Assembly (NCBI GenBank): GCA_000002445.1
Contig: AL929603.2
Span: forward strand, 480,001-544,000
Source: Trypanosoma brucei
Lineage: Eukaryota
DNA: 64,000 nt
Direction: 5' to 3'
The notes under the pieces were generated by a model, which was not told where the DNA came from, searched no databases, and saw only the letters and a program-made list of their open reading frames with translations. Below, piece by piece: positions 30,706-55,023 of the stretch (positions are counted from its first letter, which is position 1; the number at the start of each line of letters is the position of its first letter). Both the position numbers and the translations under genes were made by a program.

Positions 30706-30762
30706 TGTGTGTGTGTGTGTGTGTGTGTGTGTTTGTTTGTTTGTTTGTTTGTTTGTTTTTTT
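30706..30762. repeat. compound (GT)n-(GTTT)n microsatellite
   Basis: gtgtgtgtgtgtgtgtgtgtgtgtgtttgtttgtttgtttgtttgtttg in the 3' flank of the TOR gene. Confidence 0.9.
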
Positions 30763-32990: not shown

Positions 32991-33007
32991 AGAGAGAGAG
33001 AGAGAGA
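32991..33007. repeat. (GA)n microsatellite with adjacent (GGGA) motifs
   Basis: gggagggagggagagagagagagagagaagg. Confidence 0.8.
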
Positions 33008-37711: not shown

Positions 37712-38431
37712 TTGTGTGTTTCCGCCGTATTCTTCAACCGGTACCTGTGCATAATGGCCACCGAAGCGGAGAAGGCGCAGGTAGGAACGCATCCCATCCA
37801 AGAAACAAATAAATTAATTAGTAGTTCGAACGTAATGAATAATGAGCGACCGGCGGCGTGGAACTTGAAGGGCCGCAGCGCAGTTGCCGCCTTCGATCCC
37901 GTTACACGCCACCGTATCCTCCAGTCCCAAACAATGGCCGCTTGCTTTCATCGTCCGCTAATGGCAACGATGGAGGACCTCATTTCCGTGTCGTACGTCG
38001 GCGGATTGAGTGGTCCACTGCGCAAACCTGAACCGTTTATTTGCCTTATTGCGAGGGTGCTGCAAATAACGCCAAACACCGCTATTGTGATGGCAATGCT
38101 TCGGCAGGACGTGCATAAATATTTGCGCGTTGCGGCACTCTTCATCATTAGGCTTATTGGAAATGGCACCGCGATGCGTGAGGCTCTTAGGATAGGATGG
38201 AATGACTACAGGAAAATACGCGTCTATGGAAGCAAAGATGATTGTACATGTGAAACTAAAAGCCAAGATGGTGAAAAAGCGGATACGAATGAAGTGGAGG
38301 GGGAGGCGCTGGTGGCGGCGCCAATTCACGCAATCATGTGCGTAGATGAAATCACGGATCGTTTGTTCAACACCGGGCGAGAGGGTTACAGCAGCACATG
38401 GTTAGGAGTTAACTTTTCTCCGCTCCTGTGA
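37712..38431 (+). CDS. PRP38: PRP38-family pre-mRNA splicing factor
   Basis: 239-aa ORF. The block SYVGGLSGPLRKPEPFICLIARVLQITPNTAIVMAMLRQDVHKYLRVAALFIIRLIGNGTAMREALRIGWNDYRKIRVY...AIMCVDEITDRLF aligns motif-for-motif with the conserved PRP38 N-terminal domain (FVGGVYGG-KPTPFLCL--KMLQIQP...KYVR-LGALY-RLTG...YNDYRKIK...HVDEFIDELL). Confidence 0.88.
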   Translation: MCVSAVFFNRYLCIMATEAEKAQVGTHPIQETNKLISSSNVMNNERPAAWNLKGRSAVAAFDPVTRHRILQSQTMAACFHRPLMATMEDLISVSYVGGLSGPLRKPEPFICLIARVLQITPNTAIVMAMLRQDVHKYLRVAALFIIRLIGNGTAMREALRIGWNDYRKIRVYGSKDDCTCETKSQDGEKADTNEVEGEALVAAPIHAIMCVDEITDRLFNTGREGYSSTWLGVNFSPLL

Positions 38432-40140
38432 AGCACCCTGTCGCCGCGTACAGTTGGGGATGCGATGGGTGCAATATGGAAGGAAAATTAACTGTGACGG
38501 GTGCGACGTCACCGGAATAGGGGGCATTTCTCCTGCAGAATCAGTCCCCGGAACGTAACCCCGTCCCCGTGCTCTCGATGTTTCTCCTCTCTTTCTTTTT
38601 TTTAAACTCGTGCGTGCAAGGAAATGAGAAAGGAGTAGGAAGTTCTCCCTTCGGTTTGTTTCCACATCCCAGGATTCCGTTCAGATATTTTCACGGTACC
38701 GGTGCCGGGATCTGCGCCCGTGTTTTGCGATAGGAGTTCGACGCGGATGTGGTGGTAAACAGACATTGAGGAAAGGGAAGCCTTCAACACAAATGGAAAG
38801 CGCTGACGGAAGGAATCACACGAAGCAGGAATGAGGAGACGGTTCGACACATCGGCCGGATGCGCAACGTAAGTAATAGGGATTTGGGGTTCCTAAAACC
38901 GACGAATAAATTTAAAGACGCCCAGTCTTCCAGCACCCGCTACACATTCCATGCGAATGTTTTGCGTCGTCTGGAGAGTCCGCGAGCAACAGGCTCCAAC
39001 GGCGGTTTACCTTCGATGGGGTGGCTGGCGCCACATCTCCTCATTCGTACGGGAGCGACTTATGTGTTGCCCTCCTGAGGAAATAACTGGAAGGGAGAAG
39101 CGGAGCGGCTCAACCCAATACTGGAAAGTTCACACAGGAAGCCGTTGGAGCGCAAGCACGTATGGTGGTATCACCACCTGAGTTTCGTGCTTTGGAGGGA
39201 AATTAAACAAACCCTAACTCATAAATGCCTCCGCCCGAGTGCTTCCTCTCCTCTTTGAATCACCCATCATCCGCATATGGTGGATGCGGGGATTTATTGT
39301 CATTATTATCGTTGGCGTTACTTGCGAGCAGCGGCCGCATTCGACTACTGGTCCCTCTCCTTTTTTAGTTAGCGGAAAGGGACGGTCGCAGGAGGGGAAG
39401 CGTTTAAAGTAATTTACAAATGTGAAGGTGGAGAATTCAGCACCGTGTCGCCGCGTGGTCCGCAATTCCCTTTCAGCAAGCACACGTGGGAGCCGGGGTT
39501 CCGTGAAGGTCTTCCAGACCACCCAACACCACGACTGGAGGAAAAGGCCCGCATTATGCCTTCATTTTCATATTTAAGGGCGAGGAATTTAAGAACAAAA
39601 ACAGATAAGAAAAACGAAAGACATGGCGCGGCACATTTGCAGCAACCGTGCGCGTACTCAGATTTATGGTGAGGTGGACTGTTCTAGATGTCAGTGGCAG
39701 CAAAGAAAAACAACTAGACCAGTAACAACCGCTAGCCGCATGGCGGAACGCGACGGCCGGCACCCACACATAACGGTGTCCGCAGCTAAGCGCACGTCAT
39801 TACTTACCGTGTAATGCAAATATCAACCCGGCAATCGTGAAGGAAGTTAACTAACCCATCCCTCCTTCAGGTGGCAAGACGACCCCGGTTTCCATTTGCA
39901 ATTCACTTAAGCCTCTGTCCCGGTTCCATTCAACATCCCCGCCAAATGCCAGCTCCAGTCAGTTAGCATCCTGCTTCCCCAACACGTAAAAAATAAATAC
40001 GGGATTGGTCCCGATGCTTCGTTTTCCCCTCTCCTCCACATCTTTGAATTATCGACGGGTTTAAGCGGCCCGTTTCTTCAGCACCGTAACACAATTAGCC
40101 GAGACTGCTCTCACCCCCATCCGAAGCAGCGATACAAACA
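38432..40140. promoter_or_regulatory. putative convergent strand-switch / transcription termination region
   Basis: The last plus-strand gene ends at 38431. From about 40.1 kb the plus strand becomes A/C-rich (so the minus strand is pyrimidine/GT-rich) and the next gene is on the minus strand. There are no long ORFs here. I found no tRNA-like A/B-box structure by eye. Confidence 0.4.
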
Positions 40141-40141
40141 G

Positions 40142-40295
40142 AACACAATGTACCACAACAAATACCAACACAAAATGTTCACAAATCACAGCACTCGTTA
40201 CCCACAATTCCGCGTACGAAAGCACACAGAGGAAAAATTGTACACTATTTCACACGGAGGCAGTGGGTGTCACAAATATCCAATCATCGCTGAAA
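40142..40295. repeat. copy A of an imperfect ~150-bp direct repeat (partner at 44288..44425) flanking the minus-strand surface-protein gene
   Basis: aacacaatgtaccacaacaaataccaacacaaaatgttcacaaatcacagcactcgttacccacaattcc...cggaggcagtgggtgtcacaaata versus aacacaacatgtcacaacaaatatcaacacgaaatattcactaatcacaacactcgttacccacaattcc...cggaagcagtgtgtgtcacaaatg. Hand alignment gives roughly 80 percent identity, same orientation. Confidence 0.65.
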
Positions 40296-41079
40296 ACAAA
40301 CATAAGCACGACAACGAATGTGAAGGAAATCCCAACCACATACACGTGTACCCAGGACTAAACACCATCAGGCTGGCACTTTGGATTGGAAGTCGAATCT
40401 ACGCAAAAGATAGTGTTCACCAAGAACCTTGCACAATTCCTCCTAGAACTTGAGAAACCCCTCATTCCCTTCCAACATGTACTTTCTTCATTCTGGAGGA
40501 ACACTCCACTCAAGGAGAGACTACATACAATGTTGCCTTCCGTATAAGTGGAAATTGTAACCCCTCGCCCCTGTACATTTGGATCGTAAAAAGGTATGTA
40601 GAAGTCTTGGGACCCCAAATACGGTATTACAGCCATAGCGAATGTTTGACAATTAAATTGTCAGTAACCCGCACTTGCCCCTTACAACTAGTTCCAACCT
40701 AACCTATACAAGTCATTAATAAGACAAATATAGTATTATCTGACACAGATAGTAACAAGCTAATAGCACACTCACAACAGAGCATAATATACAAAAAGAG
40801 TTACATAAAGTTTCTAGCTCCCTTGAGATGTCATGGCATCACCAGAGAGCTCTCCAAACAAACCACCGCTATCTTGATAACGGCACTCAGCATTGCTGGC
40901 AGTTACTGCTAAACAAAAAAAATGATACAACATTCATTATTCATCTTAACAAAACAAATTCATATGATATTACTTATACACTCACATATTTAAGAATTAA
41001 ACAATATGCACACGTGTACATGCACAAACCATTAAAAAAACAAGATGCTACGCAACAATGTTGGTAACGTAACAATAAA

Positions 41080-42462
41080 CTAAAACATACAAAAAAGGGA
41101 AAGAATTAATAGCATAACAACACCAGTTTTCACATCTATATAATAGAAACAATCATTATTTACCCCAGTATCATAACCTTCACTGTCACTTTCACCTTGA
41201 GCTCGGTTACTTTTCCATAGCCCAGCATCACCACCAAGTTTCACCTCAAGAAATATTTCCTCTGCCTCATGTTGGTATTCTTCCAATTCGTGAAGATGAC
41301 TGTCAGACTCTTTGGCATACTTTGCCATTTCTTGTAGTTGCTCGGTGGCGTTAGTAAGATGGTTGTACCAAGGAATCCCACCATTTTCAAGTGTGTGATT
41401 GTAACTGACACATGTGAATCCAGCAGTGTAACCCAGGCACGTGCTATTCTCGTTATGGTCTGTTCTCACGTAGCCAAGAATACCCTTTACCTGATGGCCA
41501 TTCTGTCCCAAATTCACTAATGCATCAAACTGAGCTAATGCACTCTTTAAGGTTTTCACATTAGATGCAACATTTTTGTATGCACAAGCCTTACTAATCA
41601 CATCCCAAGCCTCAGTATGGTTGTATTTTATTTTCTTAGGGTCGCACTTGCTGTTATCACCTTTACAAGAATCAGCCATCATAGTCCAACTACCATTTTC
41701 AGGTCTCCTTATTTCATCCTTGCAAGGACAGTTATATCCATTATATATATTGTCATCACTACTGTCTTCGACATCTGAATCATGGTGATGTGTCCCTCTC
41801 TCTTCTTTCTTAACAATGTCGATAGCCTCCCCAACACATAGGCAGAAGAAGTCATTAATTAGTGTCTTTCCAACTAGCTTGTCTCCAAAAGAACCGCAGC
41901 TCGTGGCTGCATTGTAGACACTATTGAACAGCAGTGATTTGTTTCCTCTCATGGCTTCCTCCAGAGTTTTATTCTCATTTCTTGCCACATCCACAGCGTC
42001 GCCATACACAGCTCTCAACATATTTTCCTCAGCAGAACGACTTGCATTTAGCGATCTTGTCCTATTCACTTCTATTTCTTCCTTAAGTTTTTTAGCCTTC
42101 TCAAATAGTTTCTTCATCTCCTGATATGCTGTCGTGCTGTTAGATGAATTGCTCGAGCCCTTATTGCCAGCAACAGTTTCTGCCTCACTGACCATTTCCT
42201 CCAACTTCTTCAGAATCTCTCCTTCCTTCTCACGATTCTTAAAGGAGGGTTGTGGGGCCTCTGCTTGCGTGATTCGGTAAATCCTGCACAGTGTCTCGAA
42301 TTCACCAACGTTGTGGTGCTTTTCTTCTTGATGGACATTATCCCTGATCGCCCTCCAATCAATCAACTCGGGGGTCCACTTGAAAGACCACATATCACCC
42401 TGAGAGGAAGGAGATAAGACAGCCGCAAGCAACGCAATGGCAAACACTGTTTCGCGCCTCAT
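41080..42462 (-). CDS. Cys-rich, heavily N-glycosylated surface glycoprotein with signal peptide and C-terminal GPI-type hydrophobic tail (VSG-like / VSG-related; family unresolved)
   Basis: The minus-strand ORF 41080..42543 encodes 487 aa. The most plausible start is the second ATG at 42462, giving MRRETVFAIALLAAVLSPSSQG, a classic signal peptide. There are many NxS/T sequons (NSS, NST, NRT, NAS, NKT, NKS, NGS, NHT, NAT) and about 16 Cys including paired CxC motifs (FFCLCVG, YNCPCKD). The N-terminal half is predicted helical with charged heptad-like stretches. The C-terminus, ...NNDCFYYIDVKTGVVMLLILSLFCMF, ends in a short hydrophobic tail typical of GPI-anchor signals. It is the only gene on this strand in the window. 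Confidence 0.75.
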   Translation of the reverse strand: MRRETVFAIALLAAVLSPSSQGDMWSFKWTPELIDWRAIRDNVHQEEKHHNVGEFETLCRIYRITQAEAPQPSFKNREKEGEILKKLEEMVSEAETVAGNKGSSNSSNSTTAYQEMKKLFEKAKKLKEEIEVNRTRSLNASRSAEENMLRAVYGDAVDVARNENKTLEEAMRGNKSLLFNSVYNAATSCGSFGDKLVGKTLINDFFCLCVGEAIDIVKKEERGTHHHDSDVEDSSDDNIYNGYNCPCKDEIRRPENGSWTMMADSCKGDNSKCDPKKIKYNHTEAWDVISKACAYKNVASNVKTLKSALAQFDALVNLGQNGHQVKGILGYVRTDHNENSTCLGYTAGFTCVSYNHTLENGGIPWYNHLTNATEQLQEMAKYAKESDSHLHELEEYQHEAEEIFLEVKLGGDAGLWKSNRAQGESDSEGYDTGVNNDCFYYIDVKTGVVMLLILSLFCMF

Positions 42463-44287
42463 CGTGATTTTGCCTCTACATTCATTAGTCAAAGAGAGGG
42501 ACAAAAGCTTATCATTACAGTCATTATTGTTATTGAGAGACACACCCAGTAAACAAATACATCAATATATCGAAGTTAATAAGTGCCTGGGACAAACCAG
42601 CTGCTGCAGCATCCAACAAAGGGGGAAACACACACCAATACACATATTTACATGGGTTCACCCTCCTAAGCTGCATATTAACATTAAACACCCTCACAGC
42701 TGTTTTCCCATTGATTATCTTACTCTTACATATATCTGCATACAATAAATCCACTTTCTTAAACACCATGCTAGATCCTCCACTTTCCCAAGTGGACTGT
42801 GCTCCAGCCTTTTTGATTTCCTCAACAAGCTTATCTATTCTCCTATCGAGCACCTGTACATTTATGTTAAAATTATCCAAATCCTCCATTGGCTTTATTA
42901 ACTTCGGCTGCTACCTTATTGCTTTATTCGCTAGCACATTGCGTACTTAATCCGGACACATGTGTTACCTTTATCCAATGAACACCACTTTGCCGTTAAG
43001 CTTTATTTAGCATATCATCCTTTCTTCATGCATGTGCTGACACAACACTCTTCGTTGCCCTCTCTGCGTGCATGCACAGCTCCTTGCCTTCCATTTTCTT
43101 AAATCACACACTCTTAAAGGTAACAGTTAAATTTTCAAAACGCTTTCATTAGACACTTGTTTTTATTGAAACGTTTCATAATACTGTGATATGATGGAAT
43201 ATTATGTTAGTTGCCAACACACAAAACAGTCCCAGAACAACAAGTGACCTTCCCCATCAGCATCCTCATTTATATTATTTGCGACATAAAAATAATCACC
43301 ATCCTCTCAGTTAACTCTTGCCATCCTCACACCATATGCAAAGAGCATTAACACACTCCACCACCCCAGAGGAAAAATAATGGAGGGGCAGCCTTATTTA
43401 TCATCACTCACGATTAAAATAACTCAAAACAGAAACACTCCAACGAAAGAAATTATAACCTACGACAAACATGTAAGCACACACATGCAAAGATATGTAT
43501 GTTTATCACTATTGTGGGGAGGAGGAGTTATTTATATGAATGCACTTCCTCATAGTAATACAACTAGTACTATTCACACTGCCAATAAGATTCGTGTCGA
43601 GTTGCAGTTAGGCAACATTTCTGTTTACTTCGCTAAAGCATGAAAGGGTGTAAAAAATATATCTGACATCAGCTGGAGGTAAACGGAAGACGATTATTCA
43701 GTAGCATCGAAAAACAATGATGAGAGAAGTGAAGATGTCATGCACTTCATTGACAGAAAGAAAACATTTACATTTCACTAAACAATTAAAGTCATTTACA
43801 GAGCCACTCATAAATAAATTATCCCGTGGAATGGGGCACCTGCTTATGCTTCCACTGACACAATCCCATAATGGACGATATTCGCCATATTGGGATACGG
43901 ACTTACCTATTTAATATCACCCCATACCGTGATAACTGTCTCCATAATAGCCGTGTAGTACGTATTTGCTTTCACAAGAGCATTATATCATATATTGCTT
44001 ACTTCCCTGACACATTCATTATCTTCAGCGAATAATACACCAGCCTTAGCTACAAGATATCCCATTACACTCCAATAAGATATATGTTATCCCTGTCAGT
44101 CACTTTCACTCTGACATCAAACATACAGGATGCTATTGTGTATACTTCCCCATTAACAAACAAGTCCTGCTCCTCACCCCTAACGTAAAGTTCTCTTCAG
44201 TTTATTCAAAAGTTAACTAACACAACATACAAACATAATTAGCTTATATTTTGGGAAATCATATACTGATCCGCTGATACATGCTGC

Positions 44288-44425
44288 AACACAACATGTC
44301 ACAACAAATATCAACACGAAATATTCACTAATCACAACACTCGTTACCCACAATTCCATATTCTAAAACACATACACTACTTTAAACGGAAGCAGTGTGT
44401 GTCACAAATGTATAATCTTAGTAGC
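44288..44425. repeat. copy B of the imperfect direct repeat (partner at 40142..40295)
   Basis: See copy A. It lies about 1.75 kb upstream (in gene orientation) of the surface-protein ATG, whereas copy A lies about 0.8 kb downstream of its stop. Confidence 0.65.
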
Positions 44426-44699
44426 AAAAAATGTTTTATGCAGTATAACACTGAATAACATAACCAACACTGCTACAAGGGATGTTAAACCCATTAGGAT
44501 ATGCTACTGCTTTTTCGTCCTTAAAACATTATTACCTATCATATATCCATCATCCACACTTCCCTTGCGTTTCCTTGCGCTCTCGCTGAAACGTTTACAG
44601 AGAATCAGGCTCTGGGATAACAATTCTTTCAATCTACTTTGATGCCCAGTAAAGGAAACAAAGATCAGCTCTACATCACCGTACTGTTTGGTAATACTC

Positions 44700-45300
44700 T
44701 CCTATCCGTTTCTAACCAAACTAGTTGCTGATAAGCTAGGGCACTATGTCACTGCACATTAGGGTGACAACACCATCCCTATGGTAGGTAACGAAACCTC
44801 CAGTAGTTCCCACTATGAAGGATCCAGCCCCTCCATTTGCAACATCTTCCGTACCCATGATCCAGCTTTCCATATTGTTATTGGCTGTGAATTCAACCAG
44901 TTAGTTGTATAATTATTTGTGTAACCAATATACCGTCATTTGGCATATCTTCAGTGAAGGACATACTACAGCTCATTGGAGACTCCACCGTGTCGTTCTA
45001 ATGGCCATTTACTCCACCACTCACAGATTCATTTCCCTCTTCTGAATAGACAGCTTTCTCCTTCACAAGACAACAACCATTTGCCTTAACATCTGTTTGT
45101 TCAAACACCATTACCAGATCCTTCAACACTTGTCCAATTGACAATGATGCATTCACAACATGATTAGACACTCTTACTTCGTTTAAATAACTTGCATCTA
45201 TTACCTGTCCAGGTTCATCTGTATTCTCCACTATCTTCCTCAACCCCTGCATTATTGTTTTCCCTTCCCTCCCCTTTATACCATTCTGACGTCACCACTC
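44700..45300 (-). other. degenerate minus-strand coding remnant (possible pseudogene fragment) upstream of the surface-protein gene
   Basis: An 84-aa minus-strand ORF (44998..45252: MQGLRKIVENTDEPGQVIDASYLNEVRVSNHVVNASLSIGQVLKDLVMVFEQTDVKANGCCLVKEKAVYSEE...) is followed by further open stretches in other frames. Its composition is unlike the surrounding A/C-rich DNA, and it has no start context or recognisable domain. Confidence 0.2.
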
Positions 45301-45699
45301 CTAAAATCCATTCAACATTCCCGTCGCCTCCGATTGTTATTTTCAAAAACACTAGCACTCACAACACTTAAGGAATAGCTGAGGTTACATAACCCCATGG
45401 TGATGCAGGCCACCCCAACTCACCGCCAGAGCCTGGTGCCGTACTCAGGTAAGAAAAGAAAAGCGACCGCAGCCTACTCCACTAGGATGAAGTTCAGACG
45501 GAAAGTCCAAGGCATCAATTCACAGTGGGGCACACACCAGATCCGTTACAGAACGGGAATTATTCCCAGAAACAACCTGTGTACGTGCAAGAAAAGAAAA
45601 GAGGCACATTTCGCTTCCTCTCTCTAGGGAGTTGTGGCCTCATTATAAATGTTTTTCGTAAACTCTTTTCATAACTTTAACTGGACTGTCGGGCACACT

Positions 45700-46600
45700 C
45701 TACGGAAGAGTGGTGTAGCGTTTTTATTTTAATATAACTTTTTTTTATGTTTTATGCATGCTTGCCATGAGAACAAATCTCAAATCGCAGGTAAGCGTAT
45801 TCACACCGAAGATAGGGATGTTCTCGCACCGTTGGCAGAGCTATTGTCACGACGTGCATCAGCCAATGTGGCGAAATGACCCTGAGGAGTGGCATGTCCT
45901 GCGCGGTGGGCATGGAAGAGCACGGTGTTACGAATGATAAATAATGAACCTTATTCTCCGCCGGAGAGCGTCCAGGGGAGAAGCGCTCTTTTGTTAGAAA
46001 ACGAGTCCCTGCCACTTGTGTATGCGACGCTCGTGGTATTCGCCAGTCATTGGAAAGGGGGAAAGTATCGTTTACACAATATTGCCGTAATGGTAGTCCC
46101 CCCCCCAAAAGTTTCAAGTCTTTGAATCGATCTTTCTTCTGTATCGATGCAGATGGTTACGTTGGCATAAGCGTCACGGTATTGTTCGCATCGTTGGGGA
46201 ATCGGGCTATGCGTTGGTGAGGGCGAGAGGACAACGGGAAGCAATGAACCGGAAACAGTTTGGATGTACAGACACGGTGCGGCGCCTCGTCCCTCTCCCC
46301 CTCTGATGTGTTGAGCGGCCGTTGCTCTTTTCGTGCAGCTGAGGGATTCGAGAGGCGGCGCCCCCCGGTCCAGTTCCCGACTCCCTTGTGGCGGGAAAAT
46401 TGCTGTCGCTTCTAATGGAAGTGCCCTTGATGTTGGAGGTGTTACAGCTGCCATTTCACGACCGGCGGGTATCCGTGCCGTGAGGCTGAAGGCGCATTCG
46501 GGGGGTTGTCCGGCGGTTGTTCGCCGCGGCGGTTCCGTCAGTGGCCACACTTCGCCTTTTACTTTAATACTTTAGTGGGGTTGTTGTGCTTTAATTATTT
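45700..46600. promoter_or_regulatory. putative divergent strand-switch region / RNA pol II transcription start region containing a GC-rich island (about 46140..46560)
   Basis: The strand composition flips here. The plus strand is A/C-rich to the left (genes on minus) and strongly G/T- and T-rich to the right (46560 onwards: ggggttgttgtgctttaattatttattttattttc...ggtctggggcgttatctatttttttttcgg), where all genes are on plus. In between lies an unusually GC-rich segment (ggcggcgccccccggtccagttcccgactcccttgtggcggg...gttgtccggcggttgttcgccgcggcggttccgtcagtggcc). Confidence 0.45.
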
Positions 46601-49005
46601 ATTTTATTTTCTTAAATGGTCCAATGTTGTCGGCTTGCGGAAGGGGTGGGCGTGTATTCTTTGTCGCCGGTCCTCTTCCTCCTTTTTTTCCTGCTGGGTA
46701 CGGGGCGCATTTGTTATGTGTTTTCGGTCTGGGGCGTTATCTATTTTTTTTTCGGTTCGAGCCGCGCAAATTTACATTCAAACCAGTAAAATACATGGGG
46801 TTGGGTCGGATCAATGTGGTAGAGAATTTTACACGAACGCGTCCGCTGTATGCATAGACGGGAAGAGGTGCATGGGGACATCCGTTTCTGTTGGATAAGT
46901 GGGTGCATCTGTGTATTTGTTTCTTTTGTTCCCCAACGGCGTCACCATTGAAATGTGTTTTTTCTTTGCTTTCAGAGGTGCAGTGGAGTATTTTGCCAAT
47001 ATTTGGTCGCGGCGCGTTTCTATCCGCTGTTAAGGCCAACTTCACGCGGTGTCTGTGTATTCGGTGAAGGTAAGCGCGGACATTGCCACCTGCTGGAATG
47101 AGGACCGTTTTATAGCATTAGTAGCGGCAACACTCTCCTGACATTGTGCTTCCTCACTACTTATTGGGATTTTTTTTTTTGGTGGCATACTTTCGGTGTA
47201 ATTGTTTTGAACGGTTGGGGTGCAATATCCGAAAGTGCTACCGATTGCGGCAGGCGCGGCTTATCTTTGAACATTTGTGTATAGTTGTTTTTTTTTTTTT
47301 CACGGTAGGTGTTAGCATTAAATGTCACTTTTGAGATATTTTTGATGTTTTTTTTTTTCTTAAATCCTAGCCGCTACTCGATTTCACAGCGGTCTACGTT
47401 ACAATTGGGTATTTTCGTTTAATTGCACCGAATCCGGACGGTATTAACTATAGAAACCACAGTGATGTTCTTCTATTCTCTATTTACGGCTGTCTCGTTG
47501 CAATTCCTGTTTGCTGTGTCGGTATGGCGATTAGTTCCCCCTTTTTTTTTGAATGTATGCAACATGTATATTTATAACCGTGTTGTTTGCAAGTTTTTTG
47601 TTAGGTAGGGCTGTTGGAAGAGTTAATGTTTACGGTATCCCTCTTCCAAAGCAATTGGCGAAGTTACTGACATGCCGAAGGATTAGCTCCCACTTTATTA
47701 TTTCGGCAACTTCCAGGGGGGAAGGGAGAAAACTAACCCTAGTCATATGAATCTCTTACGACAGCGGGTTGGCCGAACGGTCAATTTTCGCCGTCGGAGT
47801 CTTGAAGTATAATTTTCGTTCGATATGGATTAGATGTTGTAACTTCCTAATAATTTTGCGGTCATTTCTCGGTGTAGCAACAGATTTACGCGCCGCACCG
47901 GGATTACGTGCGTTTCCAAGGTCTTTAACATTTAAAGCATTGTCAACAACTGCTGTCGGATTTTTTTTTAAATGTGGAATTAGAAATTATTAAATAGCGT
48001 TTTGGTTACTCACAATAAGTAATTCTATGCCAACACGAAGTGACTTGGCTGGGCGCATTGCATATTTCGAATATGGAGTAATGAATATCTTTTTTATCGT
48101 TATGTTGGGATAAATACGAAAAATATTACGCTTGTTGTTTCTGTTCTACTTTGAAGTTATTGCATCATGTACGATGCAATAACGGAAGTTCTTCCAATAA
48201 TTTGGACAATGAAGCCCCGCACGCTTAATTTGTTTATATAAAGTGTGTTGTTGCTGATTCTTTTTGGAGTTTGTCTCTCTGTTCTTTTTTGTTTTTTTTT
48301 AAATATAAGTACCTGGGGGGAATGCGGAGCGAGAAAACGGATGTTGGAACTGTCGATTTAGCTTTCCTATTATTATTTCTGGCTAGGGACTCCAATGGTG
48401 GAATTAAGTTACTTCTAAATCATTTTTTTTCCAAAGGAAAGTAGTTACTCAGTATTGTAAAAGGTTTCGTCCGTTGTAGGTTTGTATTATCATGAAACAG
48501 GTAGTTGTAACGTATATACCATTCTTTTTTACTTTTATGCCATGCAAATTAATAATAGTAATAAGTGATGACCTGTAGCTTGATTTAAGCCGTGTTACTC
48601 GCAATTGTTTTTATTACTCTTTGAACTGTTGGCATGATCGTTACATTTTTTGAATTTTTGCGAAGAATGTACCCCTCGTGAGCTATTACTCTCTTGATAT
48701 GAATATTCAGTTGATTGAGTTGACTTCTTTCTTTGACTGTTTTTTTTTTTTAATCAGGGTTAATGCTCTTTCATTTTATTGATATCAGAACATGTGTATT
48801 ATATTGGTAAACTTTGTATCGATGCAAAAACTATCTTTTTTTTTTTTACCGTCAGAGGTTTGAATTTGCGTTTTACCCCATTTGAGGAGCATGCACAAGT
48901 TTTTGTTTTTTGTCTTTAGCTTTTGCTTGTGCAACTGTAAGCACTTGTTTATTATTATTATTATCTTATACTTAATTTCCTATGGTACAGTGACGTTATG
49001 ATCAT

Positions 49006-49025
49006 TATATATATATATATATATA
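49006..49025. repeat. (TA)n microsatellite
   Basis: tatatatatatatatatata in ORF-free T-rich DNA upstream of the calpain-like array. Confidence 0.9.
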
Positions 49026-51582
49026 CTTCTTATTGAATTGTAATGTAACGACCACATTTTCAGAGAGGCCGTGAAAAGAATACTCTAACCTTGCTTTCCT
49101 TTTTATATTAAATAAAACATGAAGTAGTTATTTCATAACTTTACTGACGCCCATAATAAGTTGTCTGTTTCTATTTCTTCTAAAGGGGGGAGGCACGTGG
49201 TCAGGTCGAAGGCGCATCCCCAATGTTATTTTCTTCATCTCCATGGGCAATGTCAATTAACGGTGCTTTCAATACCATTCCTTTTAATGATTTCCTTTAA
49301 TATATCAAATATTTTAAATGAGTCCTGCACCTTCGTTGTCGGATTTATACCGAACTGGGCACTGTGGTAAAGCTGGTTGAAAAAAAGATAGCGAAAACAA
49401 CAAAAACGGTCTTTGTTTTTTGCTGTTGATTTCACTCAGGACATGAAAACAATAAATTTGAGTATCTTAACTGTTAAATTGGTACATACATTGGTGAATC
49501 AAATGCGTTGTGGTGGTGATAACTGATTTAAAATATCGCACTCAATTTTTTTGATACGTTAGTTCTATCTGAGTGATTTGGATGTATTTCCTTTGACGAT
49601 ACGCTTGCTTTTCTAAAGAAACGTTATCACTAATGTTGTTGTTCCCTTCTTTATTGTATAGCTTGTTGCCAGTAGACACTTACTTTATTGGTTCTGCTTC
49701 ATGATATCTTCAAGCTAAAAATTTGTTGTAAACCTTGTTTCGTTGCATTCAATTTTGATCGGTTTCTTTCTCTTATCGGTTATGTTTTATTATAATTGTT
49801 TTGTCATCAGTATTTGTGTGAAGCAGGCACCAGTCTTCCTTCTCTGGAGAACTTTAAAGGCGGAGGAATTTTTTACCTCTCCCATAAAGTTGAACTTTAG
49901 CCTTTTCCATTATCTTTTTAAAAAATCTGACTAAATATCTTTGTGGGATAAGAAACTAGCAGTGCCTCATAGCATTGACATCCCGGTCACTCTTCTCTGC
50001 CCAGCACATGGTATTGTTAAAGAACACATGTATATGTTGCTGTTGTTTGTTTTTATATAAGCTTTTAAGTAACATCACAGATATTTTGGTTTATGAAGTT
50101 CACTCCTTTCGTCATCAATTGCTTGGAGTATGTGTGGTCTGCAACTGATTTTTTTTTGCCGTTTATTTGTTTTGTCCTTTCTTTTTTAAAAAGTGTCCCA
50201 CCAAAGGGCATGCCAATAATCTACCCTTCGTGGTCGCACGTCTTTCTTTTTTTTTTTTTGACATCCAATCTCATTTCCTCCATTACAGTGCCGTTGTAAG
50301 ATATGTTTTTTTTTTTAATTCTTTCGGACGGGGATTAATGACCAAAAGTACCAAAAAGGAGAGACGGAGGCGAGAAAAGAAAATGTGGCCGTTTTACCTA
50401 AATGTTAGTCTCTTCCCTTGTCTTCTCTTCCACAGCCTTTGAAGTTTTCAACCATCGTAGGTACTTTTTTATTCTTTTTTTTATTCGGTTAGAAATTTTT
50501 TTTATTGCTGTCAAGATCTTTTGTTTTAGTAATGTTTGTCCTCTTTTATTCTTGTGTAATTATGTAAACGCCCTTTTGTCTTGGGCTTGAGACTTTTTAT
50601 TCCATGACTGTTTATGGGAACTCGTGTGTTATACATTTGTTAGAGGCCCCTTTTCCGTGCTTTCTCTTTTTTGGGGGGAGGGGAGTTTGCGAAAGGGATT
50701 ACCAAGTTGCACCCCCAAAATTATTAATAATAATAATATACATTTGTTCTTAATGCGTATCAATAGCAAATAAATACCAGGGATTTGTCTTTTAGAAGCT
50801 CTCACCGCATCGCGCAGGAGACAAGTTCAGAAAAGTAGTAGCATTCTCTTATAGGCTTGTTCTTAACTTTGAAATATTTTATTTACTTTCCATTTGCTCT
50901 CTCTCTCTGTGAATGGGTTTGCTGCCTCACAAATTTTCAATACTCATTATGTATATCGTTTCTTTTCCCAACGCTTTCACACATTTGACATTGGGTAGGA
51001 TAAGTCAGTGACTTATCCGTTTTGTTTTCAATTAGACGTGGTGAAGTGAATTGAAGTGTGTCCCGTTGCTATGTAGGGGTGTTTGAAACACAGTGTAGGT
51101 GGGGAAGTAGTTGGTTAACTTTTCTCATGTGTGCACTTGTGTCGTGTGATAGGTAATTGCTTTCCTTTTTATTCATTTCCTAAAAAAACACTATGTGCCC
51201 TCCATACCCTGCGGAAAGATTAGTTGTGCTCTGATAAAGGGATGTGTTTTATATGTTCATGTGATGAGATTAAGTTATTCTGGCGCTGCGACGGATGGTA
51301 TGGCACTTTGTGATTTAAATGTACTTTCAGGAAGCTGTATTGTGCTATCGGTGGGTTTTGTGTGGTAATGCGCGCACTCGTTGTTTTAGCAGGCTTCGCT
51401 GCTGCTTTAGTTGTTGTGTGTTTGTTATCAGCGATTTATTTTTCCGATCCCTTATGCAGTGAATTGCATCGGTCCCTATATATACGTCCCCCCTTTTTTC
51501 ACACTGGTACACGGAGGATAGGGTTATTTGAGAATAAGCGAATCCAAGCATATCTCTTATCCTTAAGCATCAGGGGCAAGAT

Positions 51583-54500
51583 ATGTCGGAGTTCGAACTT
51601 ATGAGTGAACTGAGTGAAAGCGCAGCAAAGGGTGCGCTCAGCGAACAGGCAGAAGATGGTCATCGTACCTACTCTCCTGGGCCTGAAGAGGAAGAAAACC
51701 CTGATGCAGCAGGGCGTGAAGGCGCGGCAAAAGATGGATTGGATGCTCATGCTGAAGAGGCCTCCCCAGCGCCATCACCTGCAGGTGAATCGGATGAAAA
51801 GGCCAGCAAATCTGAGCATGAAAGTGAGGCAAAGGAAGGGTCGGATGGCCGTGCTGAAGAGGCCTCCCCAGCGCCATCACCTGCAGGTGAATCGGATGAA
51901 AAGGCCAGCAAATCTGAGCATGAAAGTGAAGTGAAGGAAGGGTCGGATGGCCGTGCTGAAGAGGCCTCCCCAGCGCCATCACCTGCAGGTGAATCGGATG
52001 AAAAGGCCAGCAAATCTGAGCATGAAAGTGAAGTGAAGGAAGGGTCGGATGGCCGTGCTGAGGAAGCTTCCCCAGCGCCATCACCTGCAGGTGAATCGGA
52101 TGAAAAGGCCAGCAAATCTGAGCATGAAAGTGAAGTGAAGGAAGGGTCGGATGGCCGTGCTGAAGAGGCCTCCCCAGCGCCATCACCTGCAGGTGAATCG
52201 GATGAAAAGGCCAGCAAATCTGAGCATGAAAGTGAAGTGAAGGAAGGGTCGGATGACCGTGCTGAGGAAGCTTCCCCAGCGCCATCACCTGCAGGTGAAT
52301 CGGATGAAAAGGCCAGCAAATCTGAGCATGAGAGTGAGGCAAAGGAAGGGTCGGATGGCCGTGCTGAGGAAGCTTCCCCAGCGCCATCACCTGCAGGTGA
52401 ATCGGATGAAAAGGCCAGCAAATCTGAGCGGGAAAGCGGGACCGCTGACGGGTCAAGCGGTCGTCCTGAAGAAGTTTCCCATGCGTTTTCACCTAATAGG
52501 GAATTGGAGGACAAGGCCAATAAATCGGGAGGCGAGAGTGTGACCAAGGGCTCGGATGGCCGCCCCGAAGATATTTCTCATCCGTTTTCACCTAATAGGG
52601 AATTGGAAGAAAAAGCCAATAAATCGGAAGGCGAGAGTGTAACCAAAGATGGATCGGATGGTCATGCTGAAGAAACGTCTCCAGTGCAGTCACCTGAAGG
52701 AGAGGTAGGCGAAAGGTCTGCCGGGGCAGGATCTGATCATGAGAAACAGAAAGGCGAATCATGTTTCGATGACCGTGACACTGGCAATGATCAAGCTGTT
52801 GACCGCAATGCTCACGATGCAGCGCCCCATTTGGACGACAAACACACCAATGGGGCCGCTGCAGATGCTACCGATGCACCACGCCACACTCAAGAGGTCA
52901 ACGACCTGTTCAAGCCTCGAATGACACCTTACAAACAGCCTGACCGTTGGGATCCCATTGAAACCTATCTGGGAGAGGATGTCAGTGATGAGTTGGAGAT
53001 CACCACGGCACGTAAGCCCGTTTTCACCGATGAGGAGAAAGCTGACGTGCCAACCTTTAAGAATGGCGAACCAGACTATGAGGGTGAGTACCTTTCATGT
53101 TTCGATGAGCCTAATCTGCTGTACCGTATTTACAATCGTGAGGAGAAGACGTGGGCCTTCTACAACGACACATACAGCTATGAGATGCATGTACGATTCA
53201 CCTTTGCTAAACTCTCAAAACTTCAGGCACTGGGGAACACGAAGATGTACACTCAAGAGACAGGTGAGCATATTGCGGAAGTCATTGTATATCCTCGGGA
53301 GACCGAGATGTTCGTCAAGGGAAATGCTAATGGCTTTACAAGCAAGCTTCGAGCAGTCCCTCTAACGGAGGAGTACTACGCCCGGCGGCAAGAATTGGCA
53401 AACAACAAGATTCAAGAAGAAATCGCTCGCGTCAAAAGTATCGTTGGCGATGTAACAGATTCGGAGCAGGTTCTCAAGGCCTGTGTTGAAAATGGCATCC
53501 CTTTTGTTGACCTTGAGTTTCCACCATGTCAAGACTCTTTGGCGACCGGTGCAAAAAAGCCGTTCAAACGCCTTCCATGGGTTCGTCCTTCGCAATGCCT
53601 CCCCGATTACATGGCTGATCAGGTGCGCCTCTTCCGAGGACCAATTCGACCTGGCCAGGTGGACCAAGGAGAACTGGGTGACAGTTGGGTCATGTGCTCT
53701 ATAGCGGTGCTGACGGAGCGACCAGACAAGGTCGTCAACATGTTTCGTCACCCAACTGACCCAGAATTGGGTAAGAAGGAGCGTTCTGTGGGCGGTTACC
53801 GCGTATCTCTCAACAAGAATGGGCAATGGCGCAGCGTGATTGTGGATGACTATCTTCCCATGTCTGGTGGCAGGCTAAAATATGCAAAAAGCAGATACGA
53901 CCTCGCGGAAATATGGCCATGCATTCTGGAGAAAGCCTTCGCCAAGCTGCATAATAGTTATGCCAATATCTGCTCCGGTGATCCTCTCCACGCCCTCCAA
54001 GATATGACTGGTTTCCCGACCTCCAGGTTTGACGACGCCTTTGCCAACGCTCCCTTGTCTGGGAAGGACGATCTGTTCCAGGACTGGGTGAGGTATGTGA
54101 AGGCACAGTACCAGATTATCTTAAGCACACCTGGAAAGAATCCAAGAGACAAAGCTTCCGGCGAATGCCACACAGCAAGGCGGTACACAAGCGTGGGTCT
54201 CCTTACAGGTCATGCGTATGTGGTTCTCGATGCAGCATTCTTCCCCGAGTATGAGTTACGTTTGGTAAAGCTGCGTAATGCCTGGGGTCGTGGGTCGGAG
54301 TGGAACGGCGACTGGTCTGACGGCGACGAAAAGTGGGAACGGTATCCAGATGTGGCGGTGAAGTGCGGTTACAGCAATGGTGAGAGCGATGGCACGTTCT
54401 GGATGGCGTGGGATGCATGCTTGCGCTACTTTAACGGCGGGGGCGTGTGCTTCACGAGGAACTCAATCAACGATTACCGTGTACCCTCCACGTTTGTAAA

Positions 54501-55023
54501 CTGTACGCCTTCCTGTGTCCTTGAAATAACTGTTGAGCAGCCCACGTGGATGTGCTTTATGCTCTCTCAGAAGGATAAACGCGGCTCCCCTGAGGCCCGT
54601 GAGTACAACCCCGTCATGATCAGCATCGCGCAACCCATTGGGGGCGGATTGTACAGGGTAGTGCAGAACAGCTCCGCTGACGCCTATCATCCGCTTAGCG
54701 ACAAGTGGACTTTCTACCAGGCTCGTGATATCAGCATCCTATACGAATTGTTGCCAGAATCCTCACCGTACATTGTGATACCCCGCTTAATGTTAGTGGA
54801 ATCGCAGCCTGATGAGGTACCTTACACATTGAGTTTCTCCTGCAAGCGTGCTGTTGGTCACGAAGGCGTGACTGTGCAGCTGAAGACCATCGATAAGGAC
54901 AACAAGGTTCTCTACAACTTCCCCAAGTTTGAGCCCGACCTCAGCTCTACTGATGTGGAGTACCAAGCACGGGTTGCTCACAAGCCGTTTCCTGAGCTGA
55001 AGGTGGACTCCTCCGTGTGCTGA
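51583..55023 (+). CDS. calpain-like cysteine peptidase family protein (kinetoplastid type, predicted catalytically inactive) with N-terminal 34-aa tandem-repeat region
   Basis: 1146-aa ORF. After the repeat region comes a kinetoplastid calpain N-terminal (DUF1935-like) domain, CFDEPNLLYRIYNREEKTWAFYNDTYSYEMHVRFTF...ALGNT. The calpain protease core then follows. The catalytic Cys motif reads QGELGDSWVMCSIAVL (Ser in place of Cys). The His motif GHAYVVLD and the Asn motif LRNAWGRGSEWNG are retained. C-terminal domain-III-like sequence follows. It resembles the chromosome-1 CALP1.x cluster of T. brucei (tentative). Confidence 0.93.
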   Translation: MSEFELMSELSESAAKGALSEQAEDGHRTYSPGPEEEENPDAAGREGAAKDGLDAHAEEASPAPSPAGESDEKASKSEHESEAKEGSDGRAEEASPAPSPAGESDEKASKSEHESEVKEGSDGRAEEASPAPSPAGESDEKASKSEHESEVKEGSDGRAEEASPAPSPAGESDEKASKSEHESEVKEGSDGRAEEASPAPSPAGESDEKASKSEHESEVKEGSDDRAEEASPAPSPAGESDEKASKSEHESEAKEGSDGRAEEASPAPSPAGESDEKASKSERESGTADGSSGRPEEVSHAFSPNRELEDKANKSGGESVTKGSDGRPEDISHPFSPNRELEEKANKSEGESVTKDGSDGHAEETSPVQSPEGEVGERSAGAGSDHEKQKGESCFDDRDTGNDQAVDRNAHDAAPHLDDKHTNGAAADATDAPRHTQEVNDLFKPRMTPYKQPDRWDPIETYLGEDVSDELEITTARKPVFTDEEKADVPTFKNGEPDYEGEYLSCFDEPNLLYRIYNREEKTWAFYNDTYSYEMHVRFTFAKLSKLQALGNTKMYTQETGEHIAEVIVYPRETEMFVKGNANGFTSKLRAVPLTEEYYARRQELANNKIQEEIARVKSIVGDVTDSEQVLKACVENGIPFVDLEFPPCQDSLATGAKKPFKRLPWVRPSQCLPDYMADQVRLFRGPIRPGQVDQGELGDSWVMCSIAVLTERPDKVVNMFRHPTDPELGKKERSVGGYRVSLNKNGQWRSVIVDDYLPMSGGRLKYAKSRYDLAEIWPCILEKAFAKLHNSYANICSGDPLHALQDMTGFPTSRFDDAFANAPLSGKDDLFQDWVRYVKAQYQIILSTPGKNPRDKASGECHTARRYTSVGLLTGHAYVVLDAAFFPEYELRLVKLRNAWGRGSEWNGDWSDGDEKWERYPDVAVKCGYSNGESDGTFWMAWDACLRYFNGGGVCFTRNSINDYRVPSTFVNCTPSCVLEITVEQPTWMCFMLSQKDKRGSPEAREYNPVMISIAQPIGGGLYRVVQNSSADAYHPLSDKWTFYQARDISILYELLPESSPYIVIPRLMLVESQPDEVPYTLSFSCKRAVGHEGVTVQLKTIDKDNKVLYNFPKFEPDLSSTDVEYQARVAHKPFPELKVDSSVC
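51751..52464 (+). repeat. 7 near-identical tandem copies of a 102-bp unit (34-aa repeat AEEASPAPSPAGESDEKASKSEHESE[V/A]KEGSDGR) in the N-terminus of the first calpain-like CDS; about 2.5 further degenerate units run to roughly 52720
   Basis: The exact period is visible in the sequence: gctgaagaggcctccccagcgccatcacctgcaggtgaatcggatgaaaaggccagcaaatctgagcatgaaagtgaagtgaaggaagggtcggatggccgt recurs at 51751, 51853, 51955, 52057, 52159, 52261 and 52363 with only a few substitutions. All three frames on both strands are open across it, which produces the artefactual ORFs 51614..51934 +, 51638..52492 - and 51747..52547 -. Confidence 0.95.

What the first reader, a model, noticed from the sequence alone, without database searches (positions are those of the whole stretch)
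45700..47600. GC-rich island with GT-rich flanks at the divergent strand switch: candidate bidirectional transcription start region
About 420 bp (46140..46560) of markedly GC-rich DNA sits exactly where coding polarity and strand composition flip. It is immediately followed on the plus strand by a long G/T- and T-rich tract leading after roughly 5 kb to the calpain-like array. Trypanosome pol II start regions at divergent strand switches lack canonical promoters but are associated with GT-rich sequence and specialised chromatin. This island is a concrete candidate for the start site of both the calpain polycistron and the single-gene minus unit. The 167-aa and 121-aa minus ORFs in it are Pro/Ala/Gly-rich and look like GC artefacts, but a small structured RNA cannot be excluded.
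Basis: partly seen in the sequence, partly recalled or inferred. Interest (0 to 1): 0.5.

Follow-up and report, generated by a model that had tools for sequence, protein, structure and literature searches.

The report
GC island beside known trypanosome start region
The GC-rich patch is real, non-coding DNA at the upstream edge of an already published RNA polymerase II start region on Trypanosoma brucei chromosome 1, so the finding is correct in outline but not new.

Summary
The window is T. brucei brucei TREU927 chromosome 1, 480001-544000 (chromosome coordinate = window + 480000).

**Observation.** The island at 46140-46560 is real. Its GC is 0.59, against 0.40 +/- 0.06 for non-coding DNA, the highest in the window. 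A G/T-rich tract follows it. Bulk strand composition flips at 45.6-45.7 kb, about 0.5 kb to the left. G/C-tract polarity flips inside the island.

**Not a gene.** The ORF in it is Tb927.1.2080, annotated "hypothetical protein, unlikely". It has no homologue outside the Trypanozoon subgenus. It is frameshifted in T. b. gambiense. Its length is unremarkable for this composition. No transcript was detected in published RNA-seq. Rfam, tRNA and folding z-score tests show no structured RNA.

**Start region.** Kolev et al. 2010 already list Tb927.1.2040 (minus) and Tb927.1.2100-2770 (plus) as divergent Pol II units. The first plus-strand splice sites are at window 47552-47605. A published summit of Bdf3, a start-site chromatin reader, lies at 46654-47054, just right of the island. 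A second lies inside GRESAG2 at 41726-42126.

**Minus unit.** It is a decayed expression-site-like cassette: ESAG11 pseudogene, ESAG1 fragment, GRESAG2.

**Verdict.** This is a known divergent start region. The island as one bidirectional promoter is unproven. Interest is low.

The parts
41080..42462 (-). GRESAG2 gene Tb927.1.2040, the only intact gene of the minus unit. Its splice acceptor is at 42475 and its poly(A) site is at 40807.
   Evidence: Pfam VSG_B, E = 3.9e-25. 91% amino-acid identity to T. b. gambiense ESAG2. Splice and poly(A) sites from Kolev 2010 Tables S4/S5.
41726..42126 (.). Published 400-bp window around a summit of Bdf3 (a start-site chromatin reader), chr1:521726-522126, inside GRESAG2.
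   Evidence: Supplementary table of PMC9241505. Windows are +/-200 bp around MACS summits.
43881..44088 (-). ESAG1-like pseudogene fragment.
   Evidence: About 70% nucleotide identity to the ESAG1 gene of T. b. gambiense locus L006 13113-13320.
44371..45393 (-). ESAG11-like pseudogene. The annotated fragments are Tb927.1.2060 (44736-44873) and Tb927.1.2070 (44998-45252).
   Evidence: 70-78% nucleotide identity to the gene between ESAG2 and ESAG1 in L006/L007. Annotated as ESAG11 fragments, with no transcript detected.
45608..45703 (.). Switch of bulk strand composition, from A/C-rich on the left to G/T-rich on the right.
   Evidence: Minima of the cumulative keto skew (45608) and the cumulative G-C skew (45703). 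The GC-skew sign change is visible.
46047..46454 (-). ORF Tb927.1.2080, annotated 'hypothetical protein, unlikely'. Judged here a composition artefact.
   Evidence: P0040 is 100% identical over 135 aa. It has only Trypanozoon orthologues, 126-136 aa long. It is frameshifted in T. b. gambiense. The open-stretch length gives P = 0.077 in shuffles. No transcript was detected. There are no homologues among 1.84 billion representative proteins.
46098..46106 (+). C9 homopolymer, which reads as G9 on the minus strand. Its length varies between subspecies.
   Evidence: run list. A 2-bp deletion in T. b. gambiense. An extra Gly codon in T. b. equiperdum.
46140..46560 (.). The GC-rich island. C-tracts occupy its left two thirds and G-tracts its right end.
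   Evidence: GC 0.591. CpG observed/expected 1.11. G4Hunter scores are negative up to 46387 and positive from 46481. 1.7% divergence from T. b. gambiense.
46590..46601 (+). Target site TTTAATTATTTA. A roughly 500-bp RIME retroposon sits here, in plus orientation, in T. b. gambiense and T. b. equiperdum. The site is empty in this genome.
   Evidence: The identification as RIME rests on the 5' CCCTGGC hallmark, the poly(A) end and the 12-bp duplication, from my own knowledge.
46561..47592 (+). G/T- and T-rich tract between the island and the first splice acceptor. It is the probable zone of plus-strand initiation.
   Evidence: G+T fraction 0.628. The Wedel coding-strand 10-mers begin at 46599.
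46654..47054 (.). Published 400-bp window around a Bdf3 summit, chr1:526654-527054.
   Evidence: Supplementary table of PMC9241505.
47552..51408 (+). Tb1.NT.26, the first trans-spliced plus-strand transcript. Splice acceptors are at 47552, 47593 (63 reads), 47605 and 50999. Poly(A) sites are at 50311-50323 and 51408.
   Evidence: Kolev 2010 Tables S4, S5 and S7.
51583..55023 (+). Tb927.1.2100, the first calpain-like gene of the plus unit. Its splice acceptor is at 51515 (1328 reads).
   Evidence: Pfam Peptidase_C2 and DUF1935. Splice acceptor.

Best explanation
**What it is.** The interval is the core of a known divergent strand-switch region of T. brucei TREU927 chromosome 1. It lies between the GRESAG2 unit (Tb927.1.2040, minus strand) and the calpain polycistron (Tb927.1.2100-2770, plus strand). 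The GC-rich island is non-coding DNA. It is neither a protein gene nor an RNA gene. It sits at the upstream (5') edge of the start region of the plus-strand unit.

**Shown.**
- Both units are published as divergent Pol II units.
- Plus-strand RNA is already being trans-spliced at 47552-47605.
- A summit of the start-site chromatin reader Bdf3 lies at about 46854, roughly 300 bp right of the island.
- A second Bdf3 summit lies at about 41926.

**Inferred mechanism, plus side.** The G/T-rich coding-strand sequence that begins at the island's right end favours H2A.Z-containing, acetylated nucleosomes. Bdf3 and the Pol II machinery bind these. Pol II starts at dispersed sites between about 46.4 and 47.5 kb and runs rightwards. 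The unspliced leader is discarded at the first splice site. The low-abundance Tb1.NT.26 RNA is made first, followed by the calpain mRNAs.

**Inferred mechanism, minus side.** Leftward transcription starts separately, left of the island's C-tract half. It may come from a promoter of its own or from the antisense activity typical of these regions. It then runs through the decayed ESAG11 and ESAG1 relics to GRESAG2.
For: **Identity of the locus.** P0040 is 100% identical, and gene coordinates match with an offset of 480000.

**Published start-region evidence.**
- Divergent units in Kolev 2010 Table S14, plus the 5'-triphosphate enrichment statement.
- First plus-strand splice acceptors at 47552-47605, and the GRESAG2 acceptor at 42475.
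- Bdf3 summit windows at 46654-47054 and 41726-42126.
- Pol II initiates at the 5' end of H2A.Z regions, where G/T-rich 10-mers on the coding strand are densest.

**Sequence asymmetry here.**
- Such 10-mers on the plus strand number 0 in 42-46 kb. There are then 32 from 46599 to 51416, against 4 on the minus strand.
- A small minus-strand cluster lies at 46053-46294.
- G/C-tract polarity flips at 46387/46481.

**Island is non-coding.**
- No Pfam hit in any of six frames.
- No homologues.
- Frameshift in T. b. gambiense, with 4 synonymous against 5 non-synonymous changes.
- ORF length not significant.
- No transcript detected.

**Island is not an RNA gene.**
Against: - No table I could read gives base-level 5'-triphosphate, Pol II, H2A.Z or SPARC positions for this locus. 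Placing initiation at 46.4-47.5 kb is therefore a bracket plus one Bdf3 summit.
- The Bdf3 table lists only dynamically occupied sites, so other peaks may exist.
- G/T-rich 10-mers are equally dense in ordinary intergenic DNA at 30-33 kb and 58-60 kb. They do not discriminate.
- The sequence just right of the island is structurally variable. A RIME is inserted at 46601 in two subspecies, and 46602-46809 is absent in T. b. equiperdum. That part of the tract is therefore dispensable or replaceable.
- Conservation of the island (97-98% to T. b. gambiense) is no higher than that of the neighbouring non-coding DNA.
- I could not test whether GC islands recur at other start regions.
Confidence: 0.7

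Rival explanations
1. One bidirectional promoter. The island itself is a single core element from which Pol II starts in both directions, serving both the GRESAG2 unit and the calpain unit.
For: - C-tracts (G on the minus strand) fill the island's left part and G-tracts its right end, a mirror arrangement.
- Minus-type 10-mers cluster at 46053-46294, and plus-type 10-mers start at 46599.
- Kolev 2010 report sense and antisense 5'-triphosphate reads at all start sites.
- Staneva 2022 state that some divergent regions have a single SPARC peak and are truly bidirectional.
Against: - The second Bdf3 summit is 4.9 kb away, inside GRESAG2.
- 3.7 kb of pseudogene relics separate the island from the GRESAG2 splice site.
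- Reporter work cited found two separate unidirectional promoters in divergent regions.
- Bulk skew flips 0.5 kb left of the island.
Confidence: 0.2
2. Inert relic. The island is a compositional leftover with no role of its own, for example the remains of a lost gene or a junction created when the expression-site-like cassette was inserted. The start region is then set by the G/T-rich flank and by chromatin.
For: - The locus is a synteny breakpoint. T. vivax, T. cruzi and T. theileri share the genes up to PRP38 but not what follows.
- The cassette to the left derives from expression-site genes.
- The island is no better conserved than its surroundings.
- The only GC-rich strand-switch feature my two literature searches turned up is a T. 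cruzi centromere study, which I did not open.
Against: - No trace of any coding family in six frames.
- No similarity to any sequence available here.
- It is retained in all three Trypanozoon genomes, while the adjacent sequence is deleted or interrupted.
Confidence: 0.3
3. Real small protein. Tb927.1.2080 (135 aa, minus strand) is a genuine lineage-specific gene.
For: - An ORF of 126-136 aa is annotated in four Trypanozoon genomes.
- The ratio of 4 synonymous to 5 non-synonymous changes is lower than the roughly 1:3 expected under neutrality.
Against: - The annotators themselves call it 'unlikely'.
- The C-terminus is frameshifted in T. b. gambiense by a homopolymer length change, and 7-8 residues are deleted in T. 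equiperdum.
- No transcript in Kolev 2010 Table S2.
- No Pfam hit and no homologues.
- An open stretch of 174 codons is reached in 7.7% of composition-preserving shuffles.
Confidence: 0.02
4. Structured non-coding RNA gene. The island encodes an snRNA, snoRNA or tRNA-like RNA, as Pol III genes often sit at unit boundaries in trypanosomes.
For: Only the general precedent that tRNA and snRNA genes flank some start regions (units typed 'next to tRNA' or 'next to snRNA').
Against: - ARAGORN finds no tRNA in the window.
- No Rfam family reaches its gathering score in 64 kb.
- At E <= 5 in 44-49 kb the only two hits lie outside the island, with scores far below threshold.
- Folding z-scores on both strands average -0.08 over 45400-47500. 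They lie between -0.9 and +1.3 within the island.
Confidence: 0.03

Closest known systems
Divergent strand-switch transcription start regions of T. brucei (Siegel 2009; Kolev 2010; Wedel 2017)
   Same: - It lies between two divergent units.
- It is listed as 'Divergent' in Kolev 2010 Table S14.
- It has Bdf3 summits.
- The coding strand is G/T-rich on the plus side.
- The first transcript downstream is a low-abundance novel RNA.
   Different: - One arm is a single intact gene preceded by decayed ESAG relics.
- A sharply GC-rich 420-bp block sits at the edge. I did not find this described as a feature of such regions.
GT-rich dispersed promoters (Wedel et al. 2017, PMC5579346)
   Same: Strand-asymmetric G/T-rich 10-mers start immediately right of the island and continue for 5 kb.
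   Different: - The island itself is GC-rich, not GT-rich in the Wedel sense.
- The long G10 run, the commonest Wedel 10-mer, is absent. Only C9 (on the minus-unit coding strand) and G6 occur.
- The same 10-mers are equally dense in ordinary intergenic DNA of this window.
Sequence-specific unidirectional core promoters (Cordon-Obras et al. 2022) and SPARC-defined promoters (Staneva et al. 2022, PMC9566855)
   Same: - The region lies just upstream of the first transcript of a unit.
- Two Bdf3 summits 4.9 kb apart fit a model of two unidirectional promoters.
   Different: - The 75-bp promoter motifs were not available to me, because the paper is not held.
- Staneva et al. could not find those motifs under their peaks either.
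Leishmania major chromosome 1 strand-switch region with C-tracts (Martinez-Calvillo 2003; Puechberty 2007, PMC1805754)
   Same: It is a short region at the strand switch with oriented poly-C/poly-G tracts, from which transcription diverges.
   Different: - This comparison rests on my own knowledge and was not tested here.
- The organism is different and there is no sequence similarity.
Vertebrate CpG-island promoters
   Same: It formally meets the usual thresholds: length over 200 bp, GC over 50%, and CpG observed/expected above 0.6 (here 1.11).
   Different: - CpG observed/expected is just as high in the flanks (1.03 and 1.21) and in coding DNA (0.77-0.98).
- The criterion therefore carries no information in this genome.

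Membership tests
T. brucei divergent Pol II transcription start region | It lies between two oppositely oriented transcription units. | tested here: met
   The minus-strand GRESAG2 splice acceptor is at 42475 and the plus-strand acceptors start at 47552. It is listed as 'Divergent' in Kolev 2010 Table S14.
T. brucei divergent Pol II transcription start region | Occupancy by start-site chromatin readers or marks (Bdf3, H2A.Z, H2B.V, H4K10ac). | tested here: met
   For Bdf3 only, by look-up of published summit windows at 46654-47054 and 41726-42126. H2A.Z, H2B.V and H4K10ac tracks could not be read with these tools.
T. brucei divergent Pol II transcription start region | Enrichment of 5'-triphosphate RNA ends. 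| not testable with these tools
   Kolev 2010 state enrichment at every divergent unit in Table S14, which includes this one. No per-base data were available.
GT-rich dispersed promoter (Wedel 2017) | Coding-strand excess of the published G/T-rich 10-mers at the 5' end of the start region. | tested here: inconclusive
   Right of the island there are 32 plus-strand hits against 4 minus-strand hits, starting at 46599. Comparable densities occur in ordinary intergenic DNA at 30-33 kb and 58-60 kb.
GT-rich dispersed promoter (Wedel 2017) | Long G runs on the coding strand. | tested here: inconclusive
   C9 at 46098-46106 reads as G9 on the minus-unit coding strand, and G6 lies at 46500 on the plus strand. 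C runs of at least 7 also occur four times inside plus-strand units.
Sequence-specific core promoter (Cordon-Obras 2022) | The three motifs within a 75-bp core upstream of the first gene. | not tested
   The paper is not held. Only second-hand descriptions without sequences were available.
Protein-coding gene (Tb927.1.2080) | The reading frame is conserved among relatives, and there are homologues or a transcript. | tested here: not met
   Frameshift and in-frame deletions among Trypanozoon. Only self-hits. No Pfam hit. No transcript. ORF length P = 0.077.
Structured RNA gene (tRNA, snRNA, snoRNA or other Rfam family) | A match to a covariance model, or folding energy beyond shuffled controls. 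| tested here: not met
Retroposon-derived sequence (ingi/RIME/DIRE) | Similarity to RIME, or to reverse-transcriptase or endonuclease domains. | tested here: not met
   The RIME from T. b. gambiense matches nothing in the window except its own flank. There are no Pfam domains in six frames.

The most novel reading that the evidence does not exclude
The GC-rich block may be a discrete sequence-defined element that fixes the 5' border of the plus-strand start region and separates the two divergent start regions. It is bracketed by A/T-rich tracts and has C-tracts on its left and G-tracts on its right. It could act as a nucleosome-positioning element, a G-tract/G-quadruplex element, or a binding platform for the SPARC promoter complex or the replication initiator ORC1/CDC6. 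Similar islands might then mark other T. brucei start regions without having been noticed.
Probability: 0.12. Interest if true: 0.45.

Novelty: already known. Interest (0 to 1): 0.15.

Why it matters
How RNA polymerase II chooses its roughly 150 start regions in trypanosomes is still only partly understood. A compact, sequence-defined boundary element would be useful for that question.

Here the start region itself is already published, and the island shows no sign of being a gene.

The modest value of this locus is as a natural experiment. Three close relatives carry different structures right next to the island: an empty site, a RIME insertion, and a RIME plus a 208-bp deletion. Existing or easily made start-site maps of these strains could show whether the island or the flank sets the start position.

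Tried and rejected
**Coding relic.**
- Pfam scans of the individual ORFs and of all six frames of 45400-47599 gave nothing.
- A word-indexed search of 5.8 billion proteins and a full phmmer search of 1.84 billion representatives returned only the orthologous 'unlikely' ORF.

**Dispersed repeat or part of the expression-site-like cassette.**
- blastn and tblastx against paralogous GRESAG2 loci (L006, L007), the other species' loci and the rest of the window found nothing for 45400-47600.
- The repeat finder gave only short chance matches.
- TRF found only the calpain repeats.

**Structured RNA.** tRNA scan, Rfam at gathering and permissive thresholds, and sliding folding z-scores were all negative.

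**Canonical G-quadruplex.** No (G3+N1-7)x4 motif on either strand of the island. There are only moderate G4Hunter scores.

**Deep conservation.** The orthologous position in T. vivax, T. cruzi and T. theileri does not exist, because synteny breaks after PRP38. No comparison beyond Trypanozoon was possible.

**Dead ends.**
- Exact-protein look-ups for TREU927 genes failed, because that assembly is not in the gene-position index.
- Siegel 2009 and Cordon-Obras 2022 are not held.
- The SPARC paper's supplements contain no entry for this locus.
- The bacterial promoter/terminator scan was not used, because it does not apply to trypanosomes.
Full report
**Where the window comes from.**
- The 135-aa ORF in the island is 100% identical to a TREU927 protein annotated "hypothetical protein, unlikely", on a 1,064,672-bp record.
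- Published TREU927 coordinates of all neighbouring genes equal window coordinates plus 480,000. Examples are Tb927.1.2080 at 526047-526454, Tb927.1.2040 at 521080-522462 and Tb927.1.2100 at 531583-535023.
- The window is therefore T. brucei brucei TREU927 chromosome 1, 480001-544000.
- The T. b. gambiense DAL972 homologue (L001) is 96% identical and collinear.

**The observation.**
- The island at 46140-46560 has GC 0.591. The non-coding mean for 420-bp windows is 0.396 (SD 0.059).
- Only 0.04% of non-coding windows and 0.016% of all windows reach this value.
- The G+T fraction is 0.587 in the island and 0.628 in the next kilobase. It stays near 0.58-0.59 up to the calpain gene at 51583. Left of 45550 it is 0.432.
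- The bulk composition switch lies 0.45-0.55 kb left of the island. The cumulative keto-skew minimum is at 45608 and the G-C minimum at 45703.
- The polarity of G/C tracts flips inside the island. G4Hunter-type scores are negative at five loci from 45244 to 46387. They are positive at eight loci from 46481 to 50701.

**What lies to the left.**
- The minus-strand gene at 41080-42462 is a GRESAG2 with a VSG_B domain. It is 91% identical to the T. b. gambiense orthologue.
- The DNA upstream of it on the minus strand is a decayed expression-site-like cassette.
- 45393->44371 matches the gene between ESAG2 and ESAG1 in two other T. b. gambiense ESAG arrays at 70-78% identity.
- 44088->43881 matches ESAG1.
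- The reference annotation agrees: Tb927.1.2060 and .2070 are "ESAG11 fragments".
- The composition switch at 45.6 kb is thus the upstream end of this cassette.
- The cassette is also the most divergent part of the region between the two subspecies, at 81-95% identity. The island and the DNA to its right show 97-99%.
- In T. vivax, T. cruzi and T. theileri the genes up to PRP38 are syntenic. Other genes follow, and neither ESAG2 nor calpain lies within 10 kb. The strand-switch region therefore sits at a lineage-specific rearrangement point.

**Is the island a gene?**
- Protein gene: no.
  - No Pfam family matches any ORF or any of the six frames.
  - Two very large protein searches return only the orthologous "unlikely" ORF of Trypanozoon genomes.
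  - These orthologues are 126-136 aa long. The C9 tract at 46098-46106 varies in length, and this frameshifts the T. b. gambiense ORF. T. equiperdum has an internal deletion.
  - Substitutions are 4 synonymous and 5 non-synonymous.
  - A 174-codon open stretch appears in 7.7% of composition-preserving shuffles. Several frames are open at once.
  - Kolev et al. list Tb927.1.2050 through .2090 among ORFs without a detectable transcript.
- RNA gene: no evidence.
  - There are no tRNAs.
  - No Rfam family reaches threshold. Two irrelevant sub-threshold hits lie outside the island.
  - Folding z-scores centre on zero on both strands.
- Repeat: no. The island is not similar to RIME, to the ESAG arrays or to anything else in reach.

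**Is it a transcription start region?** Published data answer this at the level of the region.
- Kolev et al. 2010 Table S14 lists Tb927.1.990->2000 (plus), Tb927.1.2040 alone (minus, "Divergent") and Tb927.1.2100->2770 (plus, "Divergent"). They state that 5'-triphosphate reads are enriched at every such unit, in both orientations.
- Their splice-site tables give the following:
  - the GRESAG2 acceptor at window 42475;
  - a novel plus-strand RNA, Tb1.NT.26, at 1.56 copies per cell, with acceptors at 47552, 47593 (63 reads) and 47605;
  - the calpain acceptor at 51515 (1328 reads).
- Plus-strand initiation must therefore lie left of 47552, and minus-strand initiation right of 42475.
- A CUT&RUN study of Bdf3, a reader that marks start sites, lists two 400-bp summit windows here. 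They are at 46654-47054 and 41726-42126. The next one on the chromosome is 120 kb away.
- The first summit lies 94-494 bp right of the island, in the G/T-rich tract.
- Wedel et al. 2017 showed that Pol II initiates at the 5' end of H2A.Z regions, where coding-strand G/T-rich 10-mers are densest.
- In the window such 10-mers are absent from the plus strand between 42 and 46 kb. They begin at 46599, giving 32 plus-strand hits against 4 minus-strand hits up to the calpain gene.
- This asymmetry fits, but it is not diagnostic. Ordinary intergenic DNA at 30-33 kb and 58-60 kb has as many hits.

**Most likely mechanism.**
- The island marks the upstream edge of the plus-strand start region.
- Initiation is dispersed over roughly 46.4-47.5 kb.
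- The leader is removed at the first splice site.
- The minus unit starts separately, somewhere between the island's C-tract half and 42.5 kb. It has its own Bdf3-marked chromatin over GRESAG2.
- Two oppositely oriented unidirectional promoters is the arrangement reported for dissected divergent regions. Staneva et al. note that some divergent regions have a single peak and are truly bidirectional.
- What is shown: the units, the splice sites and the Bdf3 summits.
- What is inferred: the exact initiation zone and any role for the GC-rich block itself.

**Arguments against a special role for the island.**
- It is not better conserved than its surroundings.
- In T. b. gambiense and T. b. equiperdum the sequence immediately to its right carries a RIME insertion at 46601, with a 12-bp target duplication. 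T. b. equiperdum also lacks 46602-46809.
- My two literature searches for a GC-rich feature at T. brucei start regions found none. The nearest results are a 2026 report that G-quadruplexes are enriched at start sites and a T. cruzi centromere study that I did not open.
- The island has no canonical quadruplex motif.

**Comparison and verdict.**
- The region is a member of the known class of divergent Pol II start regions in T. brucei. It is already listed as such.
- It works like the GT-rich dispersed promoters of Wedel et al. on its plus side.
- Its formal resemblance to CpG islands is empty in this genome, because CpG is not depleted anywhere nearby.
- Novelty: already known. Interest: low (0.15).
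- The most novel reading not excluded is that the GC block is a sequence-defined boundary or core element, possibly general. I give this about 12%.

Noticed in passing
window 46590-46601; L001 (reverse complement) 15506-16016; L008: A roughly 500-bp RIME retroposon is inserted in plus orientation with a 12-bp target duplication (TTTAATTATTTA). It sits immediately right of the island in T. b. gambiense and T. b. equiperdum and is absent in TREU927. T. b. equiperdum additionally lacks window 45536-45684 and 46602-46809.
   Followed up: partly
Wedel 2017 Dataset EV1, compared with L001 reverse complement 15880-16000: Several 10-mers listed as enriched on the coding strand at the 5' end of start regions are pieces of the RIME 3' end seen in the T. 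b. gambiense insertion. They are GGTGATGGCT, GTGATGGCTG, GGCTGATGGC, GGGGGGAAAC, GGAAACTCTC and TAGCATCTCA. This suggests that sense-oriented RIME/ingi copies recur at start-region edges.
   Followed up: no
window 40900-45200: The expression-site-like cassette (GRESAG2 plus the ESAG1/ESAG11 relics) is only 81-95% identical between TREU927 and T. b. gambiense, while flanking DNA is 97-99% identical. This is consistent with gene conversion from other ESAG copies or with diversifying change.
   Followed up: partly
window 38431 onward; L002, L004, L005: Synteny with T. vivax, T. cruzi and T. theileri holds through the FAT-kinase, DnaJ, YIF1 and PRP38 genes and breaks right after PRP38. The genes that follow in those species have no counterpart anywhere in the window.
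   Followed up: partly
window 37712-38431: The PRP38 start codon is uncertain. Published splice acceptors at 37767-37825 lie inside the 225-aa ORF used for T. b. gambiense. The v5.1 annotation starts at 37835 (198 aa).
   Followed up: no
window 38951-39181 and 39593-40703: Between PRP38 and GRESAG2 lie a spliced 76-aa ORF transcript (Tb927.1.2000, plus strand) and a rare minus-strand novel transcript (Tb1.NT.44, 0.15 copies per cell). The convergent switch is therefore at about 39.2-39.6 kb.
   Followed up: no
window 30264-34039: This is a long gene-free stretch after the FAT-kinase gene. Blocks alternate between G/T-rich and A/C-rich, with (TG)13 and (TG)8 runs and several A12-13 and T12 runs. 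It carries as many 'promoter-type' GT 10-mers as the start region but is not listed as a start site.
   Followed up: partly
window 51750-52646: The first calpain-like gene opens with 6.7 copies of a 102-nt (34-aa) repeat at 96% identity. A 99-nt repeat (1.8 copies) follows. The copy number appears to differ from T. b. gambiense.
   Followed up: no
window 46098-46106: The C9 homopolymer changes length between subspecies: two bases shorter in T. b. gambiense and one codon longer in T. b. equiperdum.
   Followed up: partly
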